From: Flavobacterium sp.
Lineage (GTDB): Bacteria > Bacteroidota > Bacteroidia > Flavobacteriales > Flavobacteriaceae
Direction of reading: 5' to 3'
DNA length: 64,000 nt
Assembly: GCF_046317795.1 (NCBI RefSeq)
Contig: NZ_JBKCVI010000087.1
Span: 3,438 to 67,437 of the forward strand
Translations under genes and position numbers: made by a program
Part shown: positions 9,509 through 54,695 of the stretch, piece by piece
How the letters are laid out: each line of letters begins with the position of its first letter
Numbering within the stretch: position 1 is the stretch's first letter
Notes under the pieces: generated by a model
Told to the model about the DNA's origin: nothing
What the model saw: only the letters and a program-made list of their open reading frames with translations
Database searches by the model: none

Positions 9509-10147
9509 ATGAAAAAAATAGTATTCCTTTTATTACTGATTACTTCCATTAGCTTTTCACAAGAAATTGCTTTGCTGAAATACAGCGGCGGTGGCGATTG
9601 GTATGCTAATCCAACTTCGTTAACCAATTTAATAAAGTACGCCAATCAAACCATAAACACCAATATTAAATCCAAACCAGCAACCGTAGAACCTGGAAGT
9701 CCCGATATTTTTGGTTATCCATTTGTACACATGACGGGTCATGGCAATGTGGTTTTTAATGATGCCGAAATTGTCAATTTAAGAAATTATTTAATGTCGG
9801 GCGGATTTTTACATGCTGATGATAATTATGGAATGGATCAATACATTCGAAGAGAAATCAAACGAATTTTTCCTGCTACCGATTTAATAGAAATTCCAGA
9901 TAATCATCCTATTTTTCAAAAGCCAACTGTTTTTGCCAATGGTTTACCAAAAATTCATGAGCACGATAACAAACGTCCACAAGCTTTCGGAATTTTTATT
10001 GATAATCGATTAGTTTTGCTCTATACCTATGAATGTGATTTGGGCGATGGTTGGGAAGATGCAGAAGTGCACAATGACCCCAAAGAAGTTCGTGAAAAAG
10101 CATTGAAAATGGGAACCAATATCTTGAATTATATTTTTAAAAATTAA
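9509..10147 (+). CDS. DUF4159 domain protein (secreted)
   Basis: Signal peptide; GGGDWYANP, MTGHG, GGFLHADDNYG, DLGDGWED motifs typical of the family. Confidence 0.8.
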   Translation: MKKIVFLLLLITSISFSQEIALLKYSGGGDWYANPTSLTNLIKYANQTINTNIKSKPATVEPGSPDIFGYPFVHMTGHGNVVFNDAEIVNLRNYLMSGGFLHADDNYGMDQYIRREIKRIFPATDLIEIPDNHPIFQKPTVFANGLPKIHEHDNKRPQAFGIFIDNRLVLLYTYECDLGDGWEDAEVHNDPKEVREKALKMGTNILNYIFKN

Positions 10148-19572: not shown

Positions 19573-20331
19573 TTATCTTGTAAACACAATCGAATTTTCT
19601 TTGCTCAAGTTTGCGTCAAAAGTATACCCTTCATAGTTAAATCCTTTTAGGTCGTCGATAGTTTTTGCATTGGAGTCAATGATATAACGAACCATCATTC
19701 CCCTCGCCTTTTTAGCAAAAAAACTAATCATCTTAAGTTTACCGTCCTTATAATCTCTAAACTCTGGAGTAATTACTTGAACTTTCAAAGTCTTAGAATC
19801 TACCGCACTGAAATACTCATTACTAGCCAAGTTGATAAACAGTTCATCTTTTTGTAATTCATCATTTAAAGATTTGGTAATGGTTTTTTTCCAAAACTCG
19901 TATAAGTTTTTGTTTTTGCCAATCGCCATTGAAGTTCCCATTTCTAATCGATACGGCTGCATTAAATCCAACGGTTTAAGCAAACCGTACAATCCTGATA
20001 AAATTCGGAGTTTGTCCTGCAAAACGGCTAATTTGTCTAATGGTAAACTATAAACATCCAATCCTGCATACACATCACCATCAAAAGCAAAAACAGCTTG
20101 TCTGGAATTTTGCAAAGTAAAAGGTGTTTCCCATTCCTGATTGCGTTGCCAATTTAATTCGGCCAATTTCTCTGAAATATCCATTAACTCAGAAAGTTGC
20201 TTTGGTTTTTTCTTTTTTAACGTATTTTGAATAGTAGCAGCTTGTTTTAAAAACTGTGGTTCAGTGAAACTCATAGTCGGTAATGCTTTTTCAAAGTTTA
20301 AAGATTTGGCTGGAGATATAACGATTTTCAT
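19573..20331 (-). CDS. yaaA: Peroxide stress protein YaaA (UPF0246)
   Basis: ISPAKSL, FDGDVY, SGLYGLL, YRLEMG, NLASNEY, KKARG. Confidence 0.95.
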   Translation of the reverse strand: MKIVISPAKSLNFEKALPTMSFTEPQFLKQAATIQNTLKKKKPKQLSELMDISEKLAELNWQRNQEWETPFTLQNSRQAVFAFDGDVYAGLDVYSLPLDKLAVLQDKLRILSGLYGLLKPLDLMQPYRLEMGTSMAIGKNKNLYEFWKKTITKSLNDELQKDELFINLASNEYFSAVDSKTLKVQVITPEFRDYKDGKLKMISFFAKKARGMMVRYIIDSNAKTIDDLKGFNYEGYTFDANLSKENSIVFTR

Positions 20332-20431
20332 AATTTATTTTTATAAGTCAAAAATACGATTAATTATGATAATAAAAAGCGATAGCAAAATCTTAATTTA
20401 TCTATATTTGCCTAACTAAATCGATATAGTA

Positions 20432-21859
20432 ATGGAAGAATGCATCTCCGTTTTTGATATGCTAAAAATAGGTGTCGGACCATCAAGTTCCCATACTCTC
20501 GGACCATGGCGAGCCGCAGAACGTTTTCTCAACGAACTAAAAGCAGAAAACCTGTTAGACAAAACTACCAAAGTAAAAATTGATTTATACGGTTCGCTTT
20601 CCCTCACCGGAAAAGGACATGCTACAGATTATGCTGTGATGCTTGGACTGAGTGGTCAAGACCCAGAATACATTCCAGTAAAAAATATTGATAATATTGT
20701 ACAAACCATAAAAAAAACACATCAAATCAAATTAGCTAACGAACTAATGATACCATTTGATGCTGAAACCGATATTGTTTTCAATAAAAACTTTTTGCCG
20801 TTTCATGCTAATGGGTTGACTTTTACAGCTTATTTGATGGATGTTACAGAATATACCTCTACCTTCTACTCTATCGGTGGCGGATTTGTAGTCAAAGAAG
20901 AAAGGGTGAATGCCAAAAAGAAACTAGTCATAAAATGCGCCTTTCCTTTTCTTGTTGAAAATGCCGCTGATTTGCTGCAATATGCTATAACTGAGAATAA
21001 ATTAATCTCGGAGATTGTATATGCCAATGAAATCTCCATGCGTCCCGAAGCCGAGGTGCATAACGAACTAATTCGTATTTGGGAAACCATGCTCGAATGT
21101 ATGTATATCGGTTGTCACTCCGAAGGTATTTTGCCTGGTGGTTTAAATGTAAGACGACGCGCTTTTGATATGCATCAAGGTTTGATTGGTTTAGCCAATT
21201 ATACCAATCCACAAGAATGGTTAGAAACTATTCGAAAAACAGAAGTGAAGTTTAGACAAATTTTAAAATGGGTTTCCTGTTTTGCCTTAGCAGTAAACGA
21301 AGTTAATGCTGCATTGGGAAGAGTAGTCACTGCTCCGACTAATGGAAGTGCAGGTGTGATACCAGCCGTTCTAATGTATTATTTAGTAATTGAAAATCAT
21401 CAAGCTGGAGAAAAAGAAATAAAACAATTCTTGATGGTAGCGGGTGAAATTGGAAGTATCTTTAAAAAAGGTTCTACCATATCGGCTGCTATGGGTGGCT
21501 GTCAGGCAGAAATTGGCGTTTCGTCTGCTATGGCTGCTGCTGCACTTTGTGAAGTTATGGGTGGCACACCAGAACAAGTTTTAATGGCTGCCGAAATCGC
21601 TATGGAACATCACTTAGGGCTAACCTGCGACCCGATTGGCGGTTTGGTTCAAATTCCGTGTATAGAACGAAATACTATGGGAGCTATCAAAGCCATTAAC
21701 GCGGCAGAACTCGCCATGGAAACTGATGCTAAAAATGCCAAAGTACCATTGGATAAAGTAATTGATACGATGTGGCAAACGGCAAAAGACATGAACTCTA
21801 AATACAAAGAAACCTCCGAAGGCGGATTGGCTGTGGCGGTGAATATGGCGGATTGTTAA
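20432..21859 (+). CDS. sdaA: L-serine ammonia-lyase (Fe-S dependent)
   Basis: IGVGPSSSHT, APTNGSAG, GGCQAEIG, EHHLGLTCDP, PCIERN, ETSEGGLA. Confidence 0.96.
   Translation: MEECISVFDMLKIGVGPSSSHTLGPWRAAERFLNELKAENLLDKTTKVKIDLYGSLSLTGKGHATDYAVMLGLSGQDPEYIPVKNIDNIVQTIKKTHQIKLANELMIPFDAETDIVFNKNFLPFHANGLTFTAYLMDVTEYTSTFYSIGGGFVVKEERVNAKKKLVIKCAFPFLVENAADLLQYAITENKLISEIVYANEISMRPEAEVHNELIRIWETMLECMYIGCHSEGILPGGLNVRRRAFDMHQGLIGLANYTNPQEWLETIRKTEVKFRQILKWVSCFALAVNEVNAALGRVVTAPTNGSAGVIPAVLMYYLVIENHQAGEKEIKQFLMVAGEIGSIFKKGSTISAAMGGCQAEIGVSSAMAAAALCEVMGGTPEQVLMAAEIAMEHHLGLTCDPIGGLVQIPCIERNTMGAIKAINAAELAMETDAKNAKVPLDKVIDTMWQTAKDMNSKYKETSEGGLAVAVNMADC
21841..21858 (+). repeat. 18-bp direct repeat, left copy (3' end of sdaA)
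   Basis: GAATATGGCGGATTGTTA, identical to 25303-25320. Confidence 0.9.
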
Positions 21860-21920
21860 TTTGTTGCTAAACCACCCAAAAGCTTCGTTTTAAATCTGAT
21901 TTTAAAGTGAATAAAAAAAG

Positions 21921-22046
21921 TGCAAAGTCAGGTTCCGATAACTATCTGAATTGTGCAGCTTTTATAGAACTCTTTGTGGAGTTGGCATAATAATTTTTGA
22001 GAAAGAAAAATGTGAATTTTGCGCATTTTTCGGCATTTCTTGAAAC
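21921..22046. repeat. Inter-cassette repeat A1 (chimera: 21921-21984 matches A4, 21953-22046 matches A2)
   Basis: Core GTGCAGCTTTTATAGAACTCTTTGTGGAG at 21953-21981; 58/64 identical to 24414-24477; 89/94 identical to 22786-22879. Confidence 0.92.
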
Positions 22047-22051
22047 GGCTA

Positions 22052-22357
22052 TTATGCAACGTTTTTTTCTTTTCTGATACTATTAATTCTATTTACTTCG
22101 CTTTGTTTTTCAATCAATTCATTTTCTATATCATAGTCATCTTGAATACCCAACCAAAATTTTGCCGAGTTTCCGAAATATGCACTCAATCTTACAGCAG
22201 TATCAGCAGAAATTCTTCTGTTACCTTTAATTATTTCAGAAATCCTTGTTTGCGGAATATCTAAGTCTTTAGAAAGTCTGTATTGCGTAATTTGTAAAGG
22301 AATTAAAAATTCTTCTAATAAAATTTCTCCAGGTGTTATGTTTTTTAGCTTTTCCAT
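22052..22357 (-). CDS. higA: HigA family antitoxin (HTH)
   Basis: ITPGEILLEEFL...TQYRL...RISEIIKGNRRISADTA..L..YFG..A.FWL..Q. Confidence 0.92.
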   Translation of the reverse strand: MEKLKNITPGEILLEEFLIPLQITQYRLSKDLDIPQTRISEIIKGNRRISADTAVRLSAYFGNSAKFWLGIQDDYDIENELIEKQSEVNRINSIRKEKNVA

Positions 22358-22369
22358 TTTTCTATATTT

Positions 22370-22651
22370 TTAATGATAATCTATAATTCCAACTTCTAAA
22401 GCATTACCGTTATCCCATTTAAAAATAATTCTCCATTGGTTATTTATTCTTATACTGTTAAATTCTTTCAAATTGCCTTTTAGTTTTTCTAGTCTATTTG
22501 CTGGAGGAATCCTTAAATCGCTAACATCAATTGAGTTATTAATCATTCTCAATTTTCTTCTCGCCGTATCTTGAATTTCTCTAGGAAGTTTCTTTGACAC
22601 AATTCCATTCCAAATTTTTTCAGTTTCTTTATCTTTAAATGAAACAATCAT
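22370..22651 (-). CDS. higB: HigB family toxin (RelE superfamily, killer protein type)
   Basis: MIVSFKDKETEKIW...ARRKL...LRIPPANRLEKLKG...SIRINNQWRIIF..VGIIDYH; lies upstream of higA. Confidence 0.92.
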   Translation of the reverse strand: MIVSFKDKETEKIWNGIVSKKLPREIQDTARRKLRMINNSIDVSDLRIPPANRLEKLKGNLKEFNSIRINNQWRIIFKWDNGNALEVGIIDYH

Positions 22652-22671
22652 ACTCTTTTCGATACTAACGT

Positions 22672-22679
22672 CAAAGATA
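22672..22679 (-). promoter_or_regulatory. -7 box (TATCTTTG) for higBA
   Basis: Plus-strand CAAAGATA about 20 nt upstream of the higB start. Confidence 0.6.
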
Positions 22680-22726
22680 AGTATTCATTTGATAAGTTTT
22701 CATATAAACAGGATTTTTTCGAAAAT

Positions 22727-22890
22727 GTTGCATAACTTGTATATAGGTCTGAGACATTTACTTCGTCCGTTCGCTTTGCTTGGGTGCGCAGCTTTTATAG
22801 AACTCTTTGTAAAGCTGGGATAATAATTTTTGAGAAAGAAAAATGTGAATTTTGCGCATTTTTCGGCATTTCTTGAAACTGCTGTAAGCC
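22727..22890 (-). repeat. Inter-cassette repeat A2 / chimeric attC-like site (GGCTTAC ... GTTATGC on minus strand)
   Basis: Core at 22786-22814; 60-bp block 22820-22879 identical to 21987-22046; ends in integron-like core GTTATGCAAC (22736-22727). Confidence 0.8.
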
Positions 22891-22897
22891 GAAGTAG

Positions 22898-23188
22898 CTA
22901 TAATTCGATTTGAATTTTCACTTTTCCTCCTAACCCTTTTTCCACTATATCATACAAAGTTTTGAGAGTCAAATTACTTCCGTTATTTTCTATTTTGGAA
23001 ATATATTCTCTTTTCTTGTCCACTAAATTCCCAAGCTCAGTTTGAGTTAGGTGTTTTTCTTCACGAGCTTTTTTTAAGAGTAAACCAATTTTAAAACCTT
23101 GGAATTCTCTTTCAAGTTCGTCACGTCTTTCGGTTCCTATTTCACCGTAAACATTATTTTTAATTTCTTTCCAGCTTTTAGTTTCCAT
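22898..23188 (-). CDS. XRE/HTH antitoxin of RelE/Gp49-type TA pair
   Basis: KIGLLLKKAREEKHLTQTELG..V...REYISKIEN; adjacent to a toxin fragment. Confidence 0.85.
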   Translation of the reverse strand: METKSWKEIKNNVYGEIGTERRDELEREFQGFKIGLLLKKAREEKHLTQTELGNLVDKKREYISKIENNGSNLTLKTLYDIVEKGLGGKVKIQIEL

Positions 23189-23190
23189 AG

Positions 23191-23327
23191 TTATTTAGAT
23201 TTTTTTTCTGTGTAATATTTAGTCATTAATTTCAATGCTTTTTCCATTTCATTTTTCGGTGTCTTCTGCGTTTTCTTTTGAAACCCATTTAAAAGAATGA
23301 CAAGTTTTCCGTGGTCAAAAAAGCAAA
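23191..23327 (-). pseudogene. 5'-truncated RelE/ParE (Gp49-like) toxin
   Basis: C-terminal CFFDHGKLVILLNGFQKKTQKTPKNEMEKALKL typical of Gp49-like toxins; the upstream part is replaced by repeat A3. Confidence 0.8.
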
Positions 23328-23365
23328 GAGACATTTGCGCAGCTTTTATAGAACTCTTTGTGGAG
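23328..23365. repeat. Inter-cassette repeat A3
   Basis: GAGACATTT + GCGCAGCTTTTATAGAACTCTTTGTGGAG; equals A2 minus the 26 bp at 22760-22785. Confidence 0.9.
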
Positions 23366-23414
23366 CAGGGCAAACATATCAAGGGGATTTATTTGAGGAC
23401 AAGGATATTTAAAC

Positions 23415-23440
23415 AAAAAAGCCCCAGTTAAGGGGCTTTT
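23415..23440 (-). terminator. Intrinsic terminator after 23448..23750
   Basis: AAAAAAGCCCC-agtta-AGGGGCTTTT hairpin with A/T tracts on both sides. Confidence 0.75.
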
Positions 23441-23447
23441 ATTATTT

Positions 23448-23750
23448 TTAATGTGGAACGAAATGACCTCCCTCTTTCCAATCTCTATTTTCCTCATACC
23501 AATCCAACAATTCTCGCATAAATCCCCAAACTATAGCAGTTCCTGTGGCTTGCATAAAATTTACTTGTGGTTCATCATATTTATCATCTTCAAATTCTCT
23601 TATCACAATTCTGCGTTTATGGAGAGGTTTATGACCAGTAATTATGTATGCGTGAGACCTACCGATCTTAAAATATCCGTTTGGCTCAAGTACTTGTTTA
23701 GCTCTTATCTGTTCATCGATAAAGCTAATGTCTACTGTGGGATGTGACAT
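23448..23750 (-). CDS. Hypothetical protein, weakly HicA-like
   Basis: TAA-ATG coupled to upstream ORF and followed by a terminator; VLEPNGYFKIGRSH resembles the HicA GSH motif. Confidence 0.55.
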   Translation of the reverse strand: MSHPTVDISFIDEQIRAKQVLEPNGYFKIGRSHAYIITGHKPLHKRRIVIREFEDDKYDEPQVNFMQATGTAIVWGFMRELLDWYEENRDWKEGGHFVPH

Positions 23751-24128
23751 TTAACAGGTTAATTCAAGTGTTTCAACAAATTTGTCACCTGTTTCCATAA
23801 TTTGGTCAAATATTACATTCGAAGTGTTGAATGACATTATTACAGACCCTTTATCTTCTGATATAAATTCCCAACCTAATAACCTTAGTTCAGTTTCCAA
23901 TCCGCTACCGAATTTTTCACTTGTTACACAAAAAAGATTTACACACTCTTTAATGGCTTCTTGGGCATCTAACTCATCTTTAGCAAAGGTCTTAATACCT
24001 AAAAAAGGAATGTTAACCGACATAAATTCATCCTCAACAATTTTATCCCATATAGGCATATCAATTGTTATAGAAGATAGCTTTCCATCAAGTCTATTAA
24101 TTTCAATATTTGCTTCAGTAAATTTCAC
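23751..24128 (-). CDS. Hypothetical protein, HicB-like N-terminal pattern
   Basis: SVNIPFLGIKTFAKDELDAQEAIKECVNLF resembles HicB 'P.LpG..T.G.t.eEA...ikEai.l'; GTG start uncertain. Confidence 0.6.
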   Translation of the reverse strand: MKFTEANIEINRLDGKLSSITIDMPIWDKIVEDEFMSVNIPFLGIKTFAKDELDAQEAIKECVNLFCVTSEKFGSGLETELRLLGWEFISEDKGSVIMSFNTSNVIFDQIMETGDKFVETLELTC

Positions 24129-24413
24129 TTGGAGTAATTTTCATTGGTTTTTTTGATATTACAAATGTATAAACAAAACATTAAATTTAATTTTTTTAGT
24201 CTATTAAAATACAAATAATATCGATGAAATGTAATTTTGCTTATTTTTTGTAATATTTAGTTTAATATTAAATACAAAGTTATTAACAAACTATATTAAT
24301 AAGTTATAAAATTCCGTTAAATTTTTACATAATTGTTGTTTTAAAAATTTATAACAAAACATATATTCGATATATAAACGTAAAAAGTTACAATTTATTA
24401 TATTTGCTTACCC

Positions 24414-24477
24414 TGCAAAGTCCGGTTCCGATAGCCATCGGAATTGCGCAGCTTTTATAGAATTCTTTGTGGAGTTG
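24414..24477. repeat. Inter-cassette repeat A4
   Basis: Core at 24446-24474; 58/64 identical to 21921-21984; contains CCGATAGCCATCGG palindrome. Confidence 0.92.
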
Positions 24478-24478
24478 T

Positions 24479-25060
24479 TTATTTTATTTCAAGTTTCTCC
24501 CAAATGCCCTCGTCCTTGAGTTGCTTAATTAAGTCCGAGAGTTTCTGTTTTTTATTGAGAGTAACATAGTTTGTTCGCTTATCGTCAGTTTTGAAGCATA
24601 TATTTTTATCACAAAAAATACGTTTCAAAACTGAAGTCCTTTTATCAGTTTTTGAAGTCTTAATAAAATATTCAGTTGTTACAGTCCCAATTGTATCGGT
24701 TTCTTTTTCCCAGTTATAGTTTTTCTCAACCATCAAACTGTCATAGGTAAGAACTACAATATCATTCTTAATTTTATATTTCCCTTTGTAATACCAATCG
24801 TCCGATTCACAAACGTCTATGGTCAAAAAGTCATTGTCATTAAGAAATAAAAGACTACCAGAACAACAATCGCATTCTCCAAATGCTTCGCAAGTATTCT
24901 TGTCAAGTTCTGGTGCATAAAAATAAACTTGTCCAGATAAGTTTAGTGCTATATACTTTGCTAGGGTTATTTTTTTAACGGTTTTGTTTGTAGTTGGTTC
25001 ATTGCAAGAATGAAGTGCTAATATAATAAAGAAAAATATTAATTTAATTAGGTTTTTCAT
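24479..25060 (-). CDS. Hypothetical Cys-rich lipoprotein (cassette cargo)
   Basis: Lipobox LHSC; CEAFGECDCC cluster; stop codon abuts repeat A4. Confidence 0.75.
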   Translation of the reverse strand: MKNLIKLIFFFIILALHSCNEPTTNKTVKKITLAKYIALNLSGQVYFYAPELDKNTCEAFGECDCCSGSLLFLNDNDFLTIDVCESDDWYYKGKYKIKNDIVVLTYDSLMVEKNYNWEKETDTIGTVTTEYFIKTSKTDKRTSVLKRIFCDKNICFKTDDKRTNYVTLNKKQKLSDLIKQLKDEGIWEKLEIK

Positions 25061-25103
25061 TATGCTTCAATTTGTTGTTTCTAGGACGGTCGGACGCCAT
25101 CCA

Positions 25104-25165
25104 TTACGGCTAACGTTTCCTTGCTAGAGCCCCACTGCGCAATTCCGAAAGCTATCGGAATTGAG
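25104..25165 (-). repeat. attC-like right arm ending in core GTTAGCC (25114-25108) plus palindrome CAATTCCGAAAGCTATCGGAATTG (25140-25163)
   Basis: GTTRRRY-type core 48 nt upstream of the lipoprotein start codon. Confidence 0.55.
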
Positions 25166-25302
25166 GAGTAGCGCAATGAGTTTTTTTTTAACTGTCGCTT
25201 CAAATATAATCAAAATCACCATGCAACTTTATTGCCAGCTAAAAAAACTAGTGGGTTTGTGATTGCTCTCGAACGTGGGTATAGTTTACAAATCCGCTAT
25301 CG

Positions 25303-25320
25303 GAATATGGCGGATTGTTA
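25303..25320 (+). repeat. 18-bp direct repeat, right copy (overlaps porin stop codon)
   Basis: GAATATGGCGGATTGTTA, identical to 21841-21858. Confidence 0.9.
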
Positions 25321-26370
25321 GAATTCAAAAGACAAACTAGACGTTATAAAAAAGTTATTGTTAACAGGGATTTCATCTTTTGAGAATACTTTTTCTTGGC
25401 TGTTTAAATACCGTGCTTCGGTTCTCAATTTTACTTTAGAATTAAAAAGATAATCTATATTTAAAGACGTACCGAGTGTTTTAAATTCATCATTTATAGC
25501 AATAATAACAGCATCTTTATCCTGATAATACTCGGCTCGGAAAGCCGTTTGCCATTTGGGTGCCAACGTATATTGCATTATTAACACGGGACTCATCCAA
25601 TATAATTTGTTGTTATTATTTGTTACATCAGTTTGCATTCCTGCATCAAAACCAATAATAGTTCGCCACTTGGAATTCCATTTATTGTCCCAATACAAAT
25701 TACTAAAATAACGCATTCCCCATTGGTCATTATACCATTCTTTGCCCATAAAAGTGCTCCAATTAAACAATGAATTTGTAGATGGTTTATAGATAATCTG
25801 TGAACCAAAAGCAGGTCCAACATTCTTATCGGGTTTGTTGATGCGTTGCCATCCATTGGTTAGTAAACCAGAGAAAGTCCATTTTTCATTAGCAGTAAAA
25901 GTATACTTTATACCTGTCATAAAATAAGGAGAATTATCGGCTAATAACGAACGGGTTAAGGTTACATTTGAAGAATTGTTTGCGGTTTCAAATCCTATAT
26001 AACTTGGTAAAATTCCCAACTCTATGGTTGACTTTTTTGCTTTATCGAGATACAAACCCACATAAGCTTCATTAATGATTTTAGTGGTTTCGTTAGCATA
26101 ATTATCTTCTACATAGGTTCCAGCTTGTAGCGCCAATACTGCATAAGCATTATCATATTCTGCTTTAGCTCTTAGTAGCCCGATGTTTACATTAAACTCG
26201 TTATGCCGGTTATAATTGTACATAAACGGAAGTTTTTGTTCGGAATTTGGCGTATTGAAATCATAGCTGTAATAGGTTTCTAAAAATCCCGAAAAGGATA
26301 GTTTTAGGTCTTTATTTTCTTGAGCAAAAGCAGAAAATCCAATGCAAAAAATTATTATAAAACGCTTCAT
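25318..26370 (-). CDS. Outer-membrane beta-barrel porin (OmpL-like/DUF1597 type)
   Basis: Signal peptide, YYSYDFN, SYIGFE, PYFMTG, GWQRI, terminal aromatic residue (SFEF). Confidence 0.8.
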   Translation of the reverse strand: MKRFIIIFCIGFSAFAQENKDLKLSFSGFLETYYSYDFNTPNSEQKLPFMYNYNRHNEFNVNIGLLRAKAEYDNAYAVLALQAGTYVEDNYANETTKIINEAYVGLYLDKAKKSTIELGILPSYIGFETANNSSNVTLTRSLLADNSPYFMTGIKYTFTANEKWTFSGLLTNGWQRINKPDKNVGPAFGSQIIYKPSTNSLFNWSTFMGKEWYNDQWGMRYFSNLYWDNKWNSKWRTIIGFDAGMQTDVTNNNNKLYWMSPVLIMQYTLAPKWQTAFRAEYYQDKDAVIIAINDEFKTLGTSLNIDYLFNSKVKLRTEARYLNSQEKVFSKDEIPVNNNFFITSSLSFEF

Positions 26371-26801
26371 TACTTCCTTCTAGTATCTATGAGGTGTATT
26401 ATTTTCCAAGTAGTTACCTCAAAATACAAGGTGAAAGCGTTAACACCTTTATGGCTTAACTTTCCATTGACATAAAATTCATAAGGTGTCCAAACGTGTG
26501 CCATCGATCCATCAACTTGGATGTTGTAGCTCAGTATTCTTTCTTCAAATTTAATATCGGCAGGAATGGAAGCGATAGATTTGTAAAACGCTGCTGGTTT
26601 CTCATCAGAAAGTTTATTCCCTTTGGTGTTTTCCGAAATTGATTGCAAAATCATGGTGCTACTGCAAGTCGATTTGATTTTGATGGTGTCTTTGGTATGA
26701 AACCCTTCGAAGAAAGTCTCAATAGTTTTTTGCACTTGCTCCTTTTGTGCATTGACAATTCCAACACATAATAAAACGACTACTAGCAGTATTTTTTTCA
26801 T
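26370..26801 (-). CDS. NTF2-like / lumazine-binding family secreted protein
   Basis: MKKILLVVVLL signal; FEERIL..IQVDGSMAHVWTPYEFY..SHKGVNAF; start 26801 preferred. Confidence 0.8.
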   Translation of the reverse strand: MKKILLVVVLLCVGIVNAQKEQVQKTIETFFEGFHTKDTIKIKSTCSSTMILQSISENTKGNKLSDEKPAAFYKSIASIPADIKFEERILSYNIQVDGSMAHVWTPYEFYVNGKLSHKGVNAFTLYFEVTTWKIIHLIDTRRK

Positions 26802-26805
26802 ATTG

Positions 26806-28110
26806 CTAATATTTAGACCATTTGTAGAGTTCTTTCCATGTTGGTTTTTTGCCATACATTAAAATTCCAACTCGATAGATTTTGGCAGCAAACCAAACTA
26901 CCCCAAAGAATGTAGCGAATAACAACACCATGGAAACGATGATTTGCCACAGCGGAACACCAAACGGAATTCGCATCATCATTACGATGGGTGAGGTCAA
27001 TGGTATCATAGAGAAAACTGTTGCTACCGTTCCGTGAGGGTCATTCATTACGGTAAAAAACCCAATATAAACACCTAATATCAAAGGCATGATAATAGGT
27101 AACAAGAATTGTTGCGAGTCGGTTTCGTTATCCACTGCAGCACCAATAGAAGCATAAAACGAGCTGTATAAGAAATAACCACCAATAAAATAAATGACAA
27201 ACGAAATGAGTATAGTAGCTATGGGCAAGTTCCAAAGTTCTTTAATGTAAAGTTGGATGGTTCCTCCCATTTCACTTTGTGCCGTTTGCATGGCTTGTCC
27301 TTGAATACCCGAAGTTGCACCCATTTGCACACCAAAAATGGAAGACAATACAAACATGGCGGTTAACCCGAGGATTGCCCAAATGAAAAACTGCAAAATT
27401 CCAGCCAATGACGTGCCAATTATTTTTCCCATCATCAATTGAAATGGTTTTACTGAGGAGATTATGACTTCAATAATTCGAGATACTTTTTCTTCGATAA
27501 CGCTACGCATGACCATATTACCATAAATTACAATAAACATCATAATGAGGTAACCAAAAGCACCACCAATAGCGATTTTGATTTCGTTTAACCCTTTTAA
27601 AGCTGCTTCACCTGATGCTTTGGTGAGTTTGATGTCAACGGCAGCATTGGCATTTTTAATCGCTAACGTATCTAAACCCGATTTGATATAGTTTTCTTGC
27701 GTGAGCTTTTCGGCTACAATGTCTTCGATATCGTCAATAAACATGACACTCGGGCTGTCATTGGAAATATATTGAATACTTTTTTCGAGCGCTTTGTTAT
27801 CGGTTACTTTTGGGATGACTAAAAGGCCTTCATAACTTTCGCTGACAATGCTATCTTTTAGAGTTTTGGTGTTAACCGATGATAAATCAACATATTTATA
27901 TTCGTCATCACTTTTAAATTCTTGGGCAAACAAACCCGTTTCATCATGAATAGCAATGGTTTTTAAATCGGCTTTCATAGCACTTAAATAGCCCACAAAA
28001 ACAGCAATACCTACAAACAATAACGGACTTAAAAAAGTCATTACAATAAATGATTTATTGCGCACTTTGGCGATAAATTCTCTTTTGATAATCAAACTTA
28101 ATTTACTCAT
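26806..28110 (-). CDS. ABC-2 type exporter permease (NatB-like)
   Basis: IIKREF..KVRNKSF, VIEEKVSRIIEVIISSV.PFQLMMGKI; start 28110 preferred. Confidence 0.88.
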   Translation of the reverse strand: MSKLSLIIKREFIAKVRNKSFIVMTFLSPLLFVGIAVFVGYLSAMKADLKTIAIHDETGLFAQEFKSDDEYKYVDLSSVNTKTLKDSIVSESYEGLLVIPKVTDNKALEKSIQYISNDSPSVMFIDDIEDIVAEKLTQENYIKSGLDTLAIKNANAAVDIKLTKASGEAALKGLNEIKIAIGGAFGYLIMMFIVIYGNMVMRSVIEEKVSRIIEVIISSVKPFQLMMGKIIGTSLAGILQFFIWAILGLTAMFVLSSIFGVQMGATSGIQGQAMQTAQSEMGGTIQLYIKELWNLPIATILISFVIYFIGGYFLYSSFYASIGAAVDNETDSQQFLLPIIMPLILGVYIGFFTVMNDPHGTVATVFSMIPLTSPIVMMMRIPFGVPLWQIIVSMVLLFATFFGVVWFAAKIYRVGILMYGKKPTWKELYKWSKY

Positions 28111-54601: not shown

Positions 54602-54695
54602 TTAAACCACAAAGGGCACTAAGTTTTGCACGATGCTCACAAAGTTTAAGAAAAAATTGTGGACTTTGTGGCTACTTTGTGTGCTTAGTGGTTAA
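54602..54695. repeat. Inverted degenerate nonamer repeat (CACWAAG / CTTWGTG)
   Basis: ttaaaccacaaagggcactaag...cacaaag versus ctttgtggctactttgtgtgcttagtggttaa. Confidence 0.75.

What the first reader, a model, noticed from the sequence alone, without database searches (positions are those of the whole stretch)
21841..25320. Island inserted at the 3' end of sdaA, bounded by an exact 18-bp direct repeat
GAATATGGCGGATTGTTA, the last codons of sdaA, recurs exactly at 25303-25320, where it overlaps the stop of the convergent porin gene. Removing the intervening ~3.46 kb recreates a compact tail-to-tail sdaA (TAG) / porin (TAA) overlap. This is the signature of an attL/attR pair or target duplication at a protein-coding gene rather than a tRNA. 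No integrase or transposase lies between the repeats, so the block is non-autonomous or decayed.
Basis: partly seen in the sequence, partly recalled or inferred. Interest (0 to 1): 0.7.

Follow-up and report, generated by a model that had tools for sequence, protein, structure and literature searches.

The report
Integron-type cassette island beside sdaA
A 3.46-kb block wedged between two overlapping housekeeping genes of a freshwater Flavobacterium is a real insertion: it is an integrase-less array of integron-type gene cassettes, mostly toxin-antitoxin pairs, from a cassette system that is widespread in the genus, and the 18-bp repeat marks where it first went in.

Summary
GAATATGGCGGATTGTTA occurs exactly twice in the 2.7-Mb genome, at the sdaA stop and at the porin stop. 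Four related Flavobacterium species carry the predicted empty site, with sdaA and porin tail-to-tail and overlapping by 4 nt.

The block is not a decayed prophage or ICE-like island. It is a short array of integron-type cassettes: HigBA, a 5'-truncated Gp49 toxin with its HTH antitoxin, an unknown gene pair and a lipoprotein. The inter-cassette repeats are degenerate members of a ~134-nt attC-like family found in many Flavobacterium genomes (ends RYYYAAC...GTTRRRY, long hairpin with compensatory changes). In one relative's array, 11 of 11 successive elements obey the integron cassette rule.

Nearly identical strains in metagenomes differ by whole cassettes. One 2.7-kb difference lies exactly at G|TT.

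No recombinase lies in the island. An IntI/Xer-like tyrosine recombinase lacking the IntI-specific insert sits upstream of such arrays in four other loci. A distant relative (35% identity) is on another contig of this genome.

The origin of the 18-bp repeat is unresolved. The distal copy is fused to a broken attC at a 4-nt microhomology, which favours illegitimate recombination over an att site. A second island, at guaB in another species, shows the same pattern.

The parts
20432..21859 (+). sdaA (L-serine dehydratase), intact; stop is TAA here and TAG in the empty-site relative G232
   Evidence: Pfam SDH_alpha and SDH_beta; 85-91% aa identity to relatives; G232 junction sequence
21841..21858 (+). 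Left copy of the 18-bp direct repeat (last codons of sdaA)
21859..21941 (.). sdaA-proximal arm of the island. It is non-cassette flank that begins, in cassette orientation, with TT of the last G|TT core. Unique in the genome.
   Evidence: 100% conserved in metagenome contig L252
21942..22060 (-). attC-like site of the HigBA cassette. R'' is GCATAAT (22057-22051). The canonical 5' half is followed by a variant 3' half (B+A). R' is G|TTATCG, cut between 21942 and 21941.
   Evidence: CM R1 31 bits; strains L252 and L248 carry 2.7 kb inserted exactly at this G|TT
22052..22651 (-). HigA antitoxin (22052-22357) and HigB toxin (22370-22651). The cassette starts at G|TTATCGCAAC-type core G|TTATGCAAC (22736-22727), which is complementary to its own R''.
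   Evidence: Pfam HTH_3 and HigB-like_toxin; 89% identical over 21987-22736 to G048:C82
22737..22890 (-). Second attC-like site (canonical 5' half plus the B variant), downstream of the HTH antitoxin gene
   Evidence: CM R1 38 bits; 94% identical to 21952-22050
22898..23335 (-). HTH antitoxin (22898-23188) and a 5'-truncated Gp49/HigB-family toxin (23191-23335), cut off by repeat copy 3
   Evidence: Pfam HTH_3; Gp49 match covers only profile positions 55-89 of 90; an intact version with a canonical attC lies on contig C162
23336..23370 (-). B-repeat copy 3 (attC fragment). It is the junction at which strain L250 lacks both TA cassettes.
23448..24128 (-). Two overlapping genes of unknown function (125 aa, then 100 aa), followed by a terminator-like hairpin
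   Evidence: No hit in Pfam, NCBIfam or PADLOC (both proteins); the 125-aa protein has no PDB sequence match; hairpin seen
24414..24478 (-). attC remnant copy 4. Only the variant 3' half (B+A) is present, abutting the lipoprotein stop codon.
24479..25060 (-). 193-aa predicted lipoprotein cassette (predicted from its N-terminal sequence only)
   Evidence: no family hit
25091..25174 (-). Upstream attC 3' remnant (A-type palindrome) with a good core, AAC G|TTAGCC (25114-25108). This stretch is replaced by 2 kb in strain L251.
25170..25302 (.). Porin-proximal arm, unique in the genome. Its last 7 nt (GCTATCG, 25296-25302) plus GAAT of the repeat form the right half of an A element, so this is a broken attC.
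25303..25320 (+). Right copy of the 18-bp repeat. It is the original sdaA tail still overlapping the porin stop, as in the empty site.
25318..26370 (-). BBP2 (OmpL-like) porin, intact
   Evidence: Pfam PF07642, E = 9e-77

Best explanation
The 3,462-bp block is a real insertion into the 4-nt tail-to-tail overlap of sdaA and a porin gene. It is a cluster of integron-type gene cassettes without its own integrase (a CALIN), in a freshwater Flavobacterium.

Each unit is one gene or gene pair on the minus strand followed by an attC-like site. Here these sites are degenerate or variant members of a ~134-nt family that is common in the genus. Cassettes are gained and lost at these sites, at least once exactly at G|TT. 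I infer that the enzyme is a trans-acting IntI/Xer-like tyrosine recombinase of the kind found upstream of such arrays elsewhere. The candidate in this genome is the 580-aa protein on contig C111.

The 18-bp repeat is the scar of the founding event. The right copy is the original sdaA tail, still overlapping the porin stop. The left copy completes sdaA with a new TAA stop. The distal joint fuses a broken attC to the sdaA tail at the microhomology GAAT. I therefore infer an illegitimate join, for example homology-facilitated illegitimate recombination anchored in sdaA, or a template switch, and not an att-site crossover. Because the two genes overlap, only an event that duplicated the tail could leave both genes intact.

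Shown: the insertion, the cassette nature of the block, the G|TT turnover, and the broken attC at the joint. Inferred: the acting recombinase and the mechanism of the founding event.
For: Repeat and empty site:
- The repeat is unique and exact.
- The empty site is present in four relatives, and the joined flanks align across the junction in a single HSP.

attC family:
- An alignment of 20 elements shows ends CTAAC...GTTAG and three long-range helices. 89% of cells are paired against 32-49% for slid controls, and 7 pairs show compensatory changes.
- In G095:C487, elements in one orientation each follow an ORF (R-M system, DUF3024, RDD, TPR and unknowns).
- There, the 6 nt after GTT of element n equal the reverse complement of the 6 nt before AAC of element n+1 in 11 of 11 pairs. 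Identity to the element's own R'' is only 1-4 of 6.

Window elements:
- They match the model at 38 and 31 bits.
- The HigBA unit obeys the cassette rule and is 89% identical to a cassette in G048.

Strain differences:
- L250 lacks the two TA cassettes.
- L252 and L248 have 2.7 kb inserted exactly between G and TT at 21942|21941.

Recombinase:
- It lies upstream of, and is co-oriented with, arrays in four loci.
- It passes NF040815 'tyrosine recombinase/integron integrase'.

Joint:
- GCTATCG+GAAT equals half of an A element.
- Parallel case: the G417 island at guaB is bounded by a 34-nt copy of the guaB tail with one synonymous mismatch. The distal copy is fused to a truncated attC, and no ORF inside looks like an integrase by size or N-terminal sequence (no family search was run on them).
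Against: - The window's own attC-like sites are weak matches with non-canonical cores (GTTATCG, GGCTATC), and two are only halves. Present-day recombination competence at each site is unproven.
- No recombinase has been shown to act on them. The in-genome candidate (C111) is only 35% identical to the G417 array-linked enzyme and shares no contig with an array here.
- The 2-kb difference in L251 is not bounded by GTT.
- Loss of the TA cassettes in L250 could be plain homologous recombination between the 35-nt repeats.
- A 4-nt microhomology and one analogous locus are thin support for the illegitimate-recombination model. An 18-bp repeat at a gene's 3' end is also the classic look of an att site.
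- No donor arrangement (array next to sdaA with a longer upstream part) was found.
Confidence: 0.6

Rival explanations
1. Site-specific integration. An integrative, possibly mobilisable element carrying an attP with the last 18 or more bp of sdaA recombined with the sdaA 3' end. The 18-mers are the attL and attR cores. The integrase module was never present (supplied in trans) or was later deleted, with the deletion ending inside an attC and trimming attR.
For: - An exact 18-bp repeat at the 3' end of a protein gene that restores the gene.
- The reconstituted joint ...TACAAATCCGC-12 nt-GCGGATTGTTA has 9 of 11 inverted arms (read).
- A similar tail duplication occurs at guaB in G417, with a synonymous mismatch as expected for an attP of foreign origin.
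- From my own knowledge, SGI1 uses an 18-bp site at the end of trmE.
- Tyrosine recombinases exist elsewhere in the genome.
Against: - There is no integrase in the island.
- The arms are unique in the genome, and the BLAST of the island against 400 Flavobacterium species gave no listed match to either arm.
- The sdaA tail is duplicated in none of 400 other species.
- The distal copy abuts a broken attC in both cases, at different attC positions. This scenario therefore needs an extra deletion ending inside the short tail copy, twice.
Confidence: 0.27
2. Integron-integrase-mediated insertion of cassettes directly into a genomic secondary site (attC x attG) at the sdaA/porin junction.
For: - Dispersed single cassettes and arrays without integrase are common in this genome and genus.
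- attG insertion is documented for IntI1, with a GWT consensus (10.1101/2022.09.11.507474).
- sdaA ends in GTTAGAA on the + strand.
Against: - The attG paper reports a single cleavage and mentions no target duplication.
- The island ends are not at G|TT. The last core lies 82 nt inside the island.
- The cassettes are on the minus strand, and the minus strand of the empty site has no GAT or GTT near the junction (read).
- The empty site does not resemble an attC.
Confidence: 0.07
3. Transposition with an 18-bp target-site duplication. The block would be a non-autonomous transposon or MITE-like carrier with short terminal inverted repeats (ATTTGT..TAAAC).
For: A direct repeat of the target flanks the insert. 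Weak inverted similarity exists near both ends (read).
Against: - From my own knowledge, 18 bp (and 34 bp at guaB) is outside the usual range of target-site duplications.
- The putative inverted repeat is offset by 9 nt on one side.
- There are no other copies of the ends in the genome.
- The guaB repeat has a synonymous mismatch, which is unexpected for a fresh duplication.
Confidence: 0.04

Closest known systems
CALIN (cluster of attC sites lacking an integron-integrase) and SALIN, as defined by IntegronFinder; sedentary chromosomal integron arrays rich in TA cassettes
   Same: Co-oriented ORF+attC units. RYYYAAC/GTTRRRY ends. Exchange at G|TT. Each cassette's first bases are complementary to its own R''. 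TA modules with their own promoters. Highly similar attC sites within a lineage. No integrase in the cluster.
   Different: The attC family is Flavobacterium-specific (~134 nt). The window's copies are degenerate, with a variant 3' half. The associated recombinase lacks the IntI-specific insert, scores below the TIGR02249 cut-off, and is co-oriented with the array. IntegronFinder 2.0 reported a complete integron in Bacteroidetes only in Salinibacter ruber.
Integrative mobilisable islands at 3' ends of protein genes, such as SGI1 at trmE with 18-bp DR-L/DR-R (from my own knowledge)
   Same: An island at the 3' end of a housekeeping gene, bounded by an 18-bp direct repeat that keeps the gene intact.
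   Different: No integrase, no conserved arms, and no recurrence at sdaA in 400 species. The distal repeat is fused to a broken attC.
Homology-facilitated illegitimate recombination in transformable bacteria, as described for Acinetobacter, Streptococcus pneumoniae and Pseudomonas stutzeri (from my own knowledge)
   Same: One homologous anchor (sdaA or guaB), and a distal joint at a few bases of microhomology inside foreign DNA. A synonymous difference between the two tail copies at guaB is what donor and recipient alleles would give.
   Different: It usually deletes recipient DNA and does not leave a short duplication. No donor was identified, and competence of this organism is unknown.
attC x attG cassette insertion (Loot et al., 10.1101/2022.09.11.507474)
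   Same: It explains why cassettes and small arrays sit outside integron platforms all over these genomes.
   Different: It does not produce the 18-bp repeat, and it does not fit the strand or the end points of this island.

Membership tests
Integron cassette array (CALIN) | attC sites: imperfect inverted repeat with R'' (RYYYAAC) and R' (GTTRRRY) brought together by a long hairpin | tested here: met
   Family level: 23-pair structure, 89% of cells paired against 32-49% for slid controls, 7 pairs with compensatory changes. The window copies are degenerate: 38 and 31 bits, with R'' GCATAAT and GCTTACA.
Integron cassette array (CALIN) | Cassette rule: the bases after G|TT of one attC are the complement of the R'' flank of the next attC | tested here: met
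   G095 array: 11 of 11 pairs match at 6 of 6 nt. G145 array: 4 of 7. Window HigBA: GTTATGCAAC (22736-22727) against R'' GTTGCATAAT, 9 of 10.
Integron cassette array (CALIN) | Cassette gain and loss by exchange at G|TT | tested here: met
   Strains L252 and L248 have 2.7 kb inserted between G and TT at window 21942|21941, and the insert ends ...AAAACG|TTATCGG. Other differences (L250, L251) do not resolve to a core.
Integron cassette array (CALIN) | At least two attC sites in one orientation with no integron integrase nearby | tested here: met
   Two model hits plus three partial sites, all on the minus strand. No tyrosine recombinase on the 80-kb contig.
Complete integron (IntI + attI + Pc) | IntI with the IntI-specific additional domain, scoring over the family cut-off | tested here: not met
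   The best recombinases match TIGR02249 positions 2-178 and 240-315 only, at 217-218 bits against a cut-off of 265. The G417 enzyme passes NF040815 at 222.7 against 220.
Complete integron (IntI + attI + Pc) | Recombinase gene adjacent to the array | tested here: not met
   Not in this island or on this contig. The feature is met at four other loci, where the recombinase is co-oriented and 0.6-4 kb upstream of the first attC.
Complete integron (IntI + attI + Pc) | attI site and Pc promoter | not tested
   No model for an attI of this family was available. The region 25091-25302 was not analysed for promoter activity.
Integrative element with attL/attR | Direct repeats at both ends, and an empty site in relatives | tested here: met
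Integrative element with attL/attR | A cognate integrase in the element, or a demonstrable one acting in trans | tested here: not met
   None in the element. Five tyrosine recombinases lie elsewhere in the genome, and none is linked to this site.
Integrative element with attL/attR | Recurrent use of the same attB, or conserved element arms | tested here: not met
   0 of 400 other Flavobacterium species duplicate the sdaA tail. The arms are unique in the genome and gave no listed match in the 400-species BLAST.
Integrative element with attL/attR | Excision to a circle, restoring the empty site | not testable with these tools
No empty-site contig of this species was seen.

The most novel reading that the evidence does not exclude
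Flavobacterium, and a few related genera, carry a widespread and so far undescribed integron-like system. It has a ~134-nt attC family. Its recombinase is IntI/XerA-like, lacks the IntI-specific domain, and is co-oriented with its array. Small arrays of this system become seeded at the 3' ends of housekeeping genes (sdaA here, guaB in another species) by a recurrent process that copies the gene's tail, possibly a recombinase-linked mechanism not known for classical integrons.
Probability: 0.25. Interest if true: 0.75.

Novelty: new variant of a known kind. Interest (0 to 1): 0.55.

Why it matters
Integrons are considered rare in Bacteroidota. The IntegronFinder 2.0 survey found only one complete integron there, in Salinibacter.

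This island led to a genus-wide family of attC-like sites, with arrays of more than 20 cassettes. One complete genome holds 37 model matches. These arrays obey the integron cassette rule but are paired with a recombinase that lacks the defining IntI insert. If the system is functional, three things follow:
- It extends the range of enzymes that can run a cassette system.
- It provides a source of TA, R-M and unknown cassettes in freshwater bacteria and in the fish-pathogen species F. psychrophilum, whose type-strain assembly carries the core motif.
- It gives two natural examples of how such arrays are founded outside a platform without breaking overlapping genes.

For the window itself, the result is a clean annotation. 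The block is a strain-variable accessory island, not a prophage or ICE remnant.

Tried and rejected
- **Rfam.** A scan of 20000-27000 at E up to 10 gave only noise.
- **Single-sequence folds.** Folds of the window repeats as ssDNA were not significantly structured (z = -1 to -1.8). This first led me to reject attC. The family alignment later reversed that.
- **Core repeat in genome contigs.** An exact search for the window's B repeat gave 0 hits, because the variant is lineage-specific.
- **sdaA tail as a recurrent attB.** Only G298 and G317 showed a second match, and both are chance hits inside other genes.
- **Empty site as a pseudo-attC.** The model gives only noise at the junction. A 9.9-bit hit at 21858-21928 (E = 0.22) was noted but not used.
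- **Flanking repeats around other arrays.** None were found in this genome. In G417 only the guaB case has them.
- **Recombinase loci.** There are no attC hits within 1.5 kb of eight recombinase loci. Linkage appeared only with longer flanks.
- **Unknown cassette proteins.** The three unknown proteins have no Pfam, NCBIfam or PADLOC hit, and the 125-aa protein has no PDB sequence match.

Full report
**1. The observation**

The 18-mer GAATATGGCGGATTGTTA lies at 21841-21858 and 25303-25320. The window has no other match at up to two mismatches, and no shuffle produced one. The whole 2.73-Mb assembly holds exactly these two copies. The window is contig C87:3438-67437 of a 224-contig MAG.

- The left copy is the end of sdaA (20432-21859; serine dehydratase alpha and beta domains).
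- The right copy ends in TTA, the reverse complement of the stop codon of a convergent BBP2 porin (25318-26370).
- None of the ORFs between the repeats is an integrase or transposase.

**2. The empty site**

I searched 400 species of the genus for sdaA. Record titles show the genus is Flavobacterium. I examined the 29 closest loci.

- In G232, G415, G347 and G130, sdaA and the porin overlap tail-to-tail by 4 nt.
- G232 reads ...AATATGGCGGATTGTTAGAATTCAAAGG, which is the window's right copy plus the porin end.
- The window's flanks, joined in a script, align with all four as single HSPs running through the junction at 82-74% identity.

The insertion and the predicted empty site are therefore confirmed.

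Other relatives carry different, unrelated inserts at the same place, with no repeat:
- a 125-aa membrane-protein gene in G022 and G143;
- a gene of about 130 codons in G315, which I read as a receiver-domain protein without a family search;
- a lipoprotein gene in G145.

The junction is therefore a general variable spot.

Independent assemblies of the same species confirm both junctions:
- three Logan runs;
- JGI contig L251, which spans the whole island with both 18-mers.

**3. What the block is**

It holds four minus-strand units:
- HigB/HigA;
- an HTH antitoxin with a Gp49-family toxin that lacks its 5' half;
- two overlapping genes of unknown function;
- a 193-aa predicted lipoprotein.

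The units are separated by a repeat with the core GCAGCTTTTATAGAAYTCTTTGT. It has four copies, found only at this locus in the genome. Two copies extend to 99 nt.

The extension belongs to a dispersed ~110-nt family in this genome and in many Flavobacterium species. In G095:C487 and G145:C52 the family forms dense arrays in one orientation, with each element directly after an ORF.

Aligned in gene orientation, the elements start with nnCTAAC-AGCCGTTTC and end with GAAGCGGCGGAAC-GTTAGnn. These are the integron R'' (RYYYAAC) and R' (GTTRRRY) boxes.

A three-helix long-range structure is supported:
- 89% of cells are paired, against 32-49% when the partners are slid;
- 7 pairs carry compensatory changes;
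- 0 of 500 shuffles reach the observed covariation score.

The decisive test is the cassette rule. In the G095 array, the six bases after GTT of element n equal the reverse complement of the six bases before AAC of element n+1 in 11 of 11 successive pairs. Identity to the element's own R'' is only 1-4 of 6. In G145 the rule holds in 4 of 7 pairs. That pattern arises only if each cassette was once a circle that recombined at G|TT.

**4. The window's own sites**

A covariance model of the family (R1) finds 18 sites in this genome. The two in the island are the weakest, at 38 and 31 bits.

- They keep the canonical 5' half but have a variant 3' half, the 'B' repeat plus an 'A' palindrome.
- Copy 3 is B only, and copy 4 is B+A only.
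- A further 3' remnant with a good core (AAC G|TTAGCC) lies upstream of the lipoprotein gene.
- The HigBA unit behaves as a true cassette. It begins with G|TTATGCAAC (22736-22727), complementary to its own R'' GTTGCATAAT (22060-22051).
- The stretch 21987-22736 is 89% identical to a cassette in G048, and the similarity stops at that core.

**5. Turnover among strains**

Five metagenome contigs carry the B repeat. Four of them match the island at 96-100% identity over long stretches.

- L250 lacks both TA cassettes, with B copy 1 fused to B copy 3.
- L252 and L248 carry 2.7 kb more, inserted exactly between G and TT of CAGATAG|TTATCGG (window 21942|21941). The insert ends with ...GGCAAAACG|TTATCGG.
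- L251 has 2 kb in place of 25091-25169.

The array is therefore a living, strain-variable cassette store, and at least one difference is a precise G|TT event. Both 18-mers and their flanks are the same in L251, so the founding insertion predates this diversification.

**6. The recombinase**

The contig has no tyrosine recombinase, and the genome has five elsewhere. None reaches the integron-integrase cut-off.

One family matches TIGR02249 at positions 2-178 and 240-315 only, so it lacks the IntI-specific insert.

In the complete genome G417 (record CP096136.1), a 345-aa member lies about 600 nt upstream of, and co-oriented with, the first attC of an array of more than 20 elements. It passes NCBIfam NF040815, 'site-specific tyrosine recombinase/integron integrase', at 222.7 bits against a cut-off of 220.

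The same linkage holds in three more loci: L141, L189 and L163. L163 carries the long-N-terminus subtype that is also found on contig C111 of this genome.

Other arrays in G417 have no recombinase.

At family level, one genome per genus and with strict filters, the element appears in 8 of 250 genera.

**7. Where the 18-bp repeat comes from**

*Integron-type insertion at a genomic site does not fit.*
- The attG paper describes a single cleavage at GWT and mentions no target duplication.
- The island's ends are not at G|TT.
- The minus strand of the empty site has no GAT or GTT near the junction.
- The empty site does not resemble an attC.

*A classical att site is possible but lacks support.*
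- No other species among 400 duplicates the sdaA tail.
- The island's arms are unique.

*The right joint looks illegitimate.*
- The 7 nt left of the right copy (GCTATCG) plus the first 4 nt of the repeat (GAAT) form the right half of the A element, GCTATCGGAAT.
- That 11-mer occurs five times in the genome, three of them in A-type elements or fragments, counting this joint.
- In cassette orientation, the island therefore begins inside a broken attC, joined to the sdaA tail at a 4-nt microhomology.

*A second case has the same anatomy.* In G417 a cassette island at the 3' end of guaB is bounded by a 34-nt copy of the guaB tail.
- The two copies differ at one synonymous position (GCT/GCG).
- The distal copy is fused directly to an attC truncated in its middle.
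- No ORF inside looks like an integrase by size or N-terminal sequence; I ran no family search on them.

I read both cases as illegitimate joints. One possibility is homology-facilitated illegitimate recombination anchored in the housekeeping gene. Another is a replication template switch. Because sdaA and the porin overlap, only an event that duplicated the tail could leave both genes intact, which explains why such an event survived.

This step is inference. I put it at about 0.45, against about 0.27 for an att-site integration followed by loss of the integrase module.

**8. Verdict**

The block is an integrase-less integron-type cassette array of a Flavobacterium-wide system, so I classify it as a new variant of a known kind. 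The finding is of moderate interest in itself. The larger point is the lead it gives to that system and to the recurrent tail-duplicating founding events.

Noticed in passing
L239:2405-2438 and 9881-9914 (G417 = CP096136.1, about 3,488,404-3,495,913): A second cassette island, at the 3' end of guaB in another Flavobacterium. It is bounded by a 34-nt copy of the guaB tail with one synonymous mismatch, and the distal copy is fused to a truncated attC. No ORF inside looks like an integrase by size or N-terminal sequence.
   Followed up: partly
L234:2110-3147 (G417); G000 contig C111:2675-4417: An IntI/XerA-like tyrosine recombinase family lacking the IntI-specific insert. It lies upstream of, and is co-oriented with, attC arrays in four loci. 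The copy in this genome has a ~290-aa N-terminal extension and sits on a 5-kb contig.
   Followed up: partly
G000 contigs C180, C3, C36, C162, C10, C60, C178, C193, C181, C184, C147, C197: Sixteen further attC-like sites in this genome, as singletons or short arrays beside housekeeping genes. On C3, two small predicted-lipoprotein cassettes follow a 414-aa Bacteroidetes-type integrase. On C162, an intact Gp49/HTH TA cassette has a canonical attC.
   Followed up: partly
L097 (G095:C487 = JAYTGH010000487.1), 223-2728: A C5 cytosine methylase plus an MvaI/BcnI-family endonuclease form one cassette in a 13-element array, so a restriction-modification system is carried as an integron-type cassette.
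   Followed up: no
window 54602-54695: An intergenic element made of facing CACAAAG-type units (ACCACAAAGGGCAC...GTGGCTACTTTGTGTG). It is a different repeat family from the attC-like elements, although the B repeat also contains CCACAAAG.
   Followed up: no
window 23405-23430: A strong terminator-like hairpin (AAAAAAGCCCCAGTTAAGGGGCTTTT) between the unknown gene pair and repeat copy 3. The fold of its region has z = -3.1.
   Followed up: no
L031, L035, L008, L046 (G315, G145, G022, G143): The sdaA/porin junction holds different small inserts in different species: a gene of about 130 codons that I read as a receiver-domain protein (G315), a lipoprotein gene (G145), and a 125-aa membrane-protein gene (G022, G143). 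It is a recurrent variable spot without repeats.
   Followed up: partly
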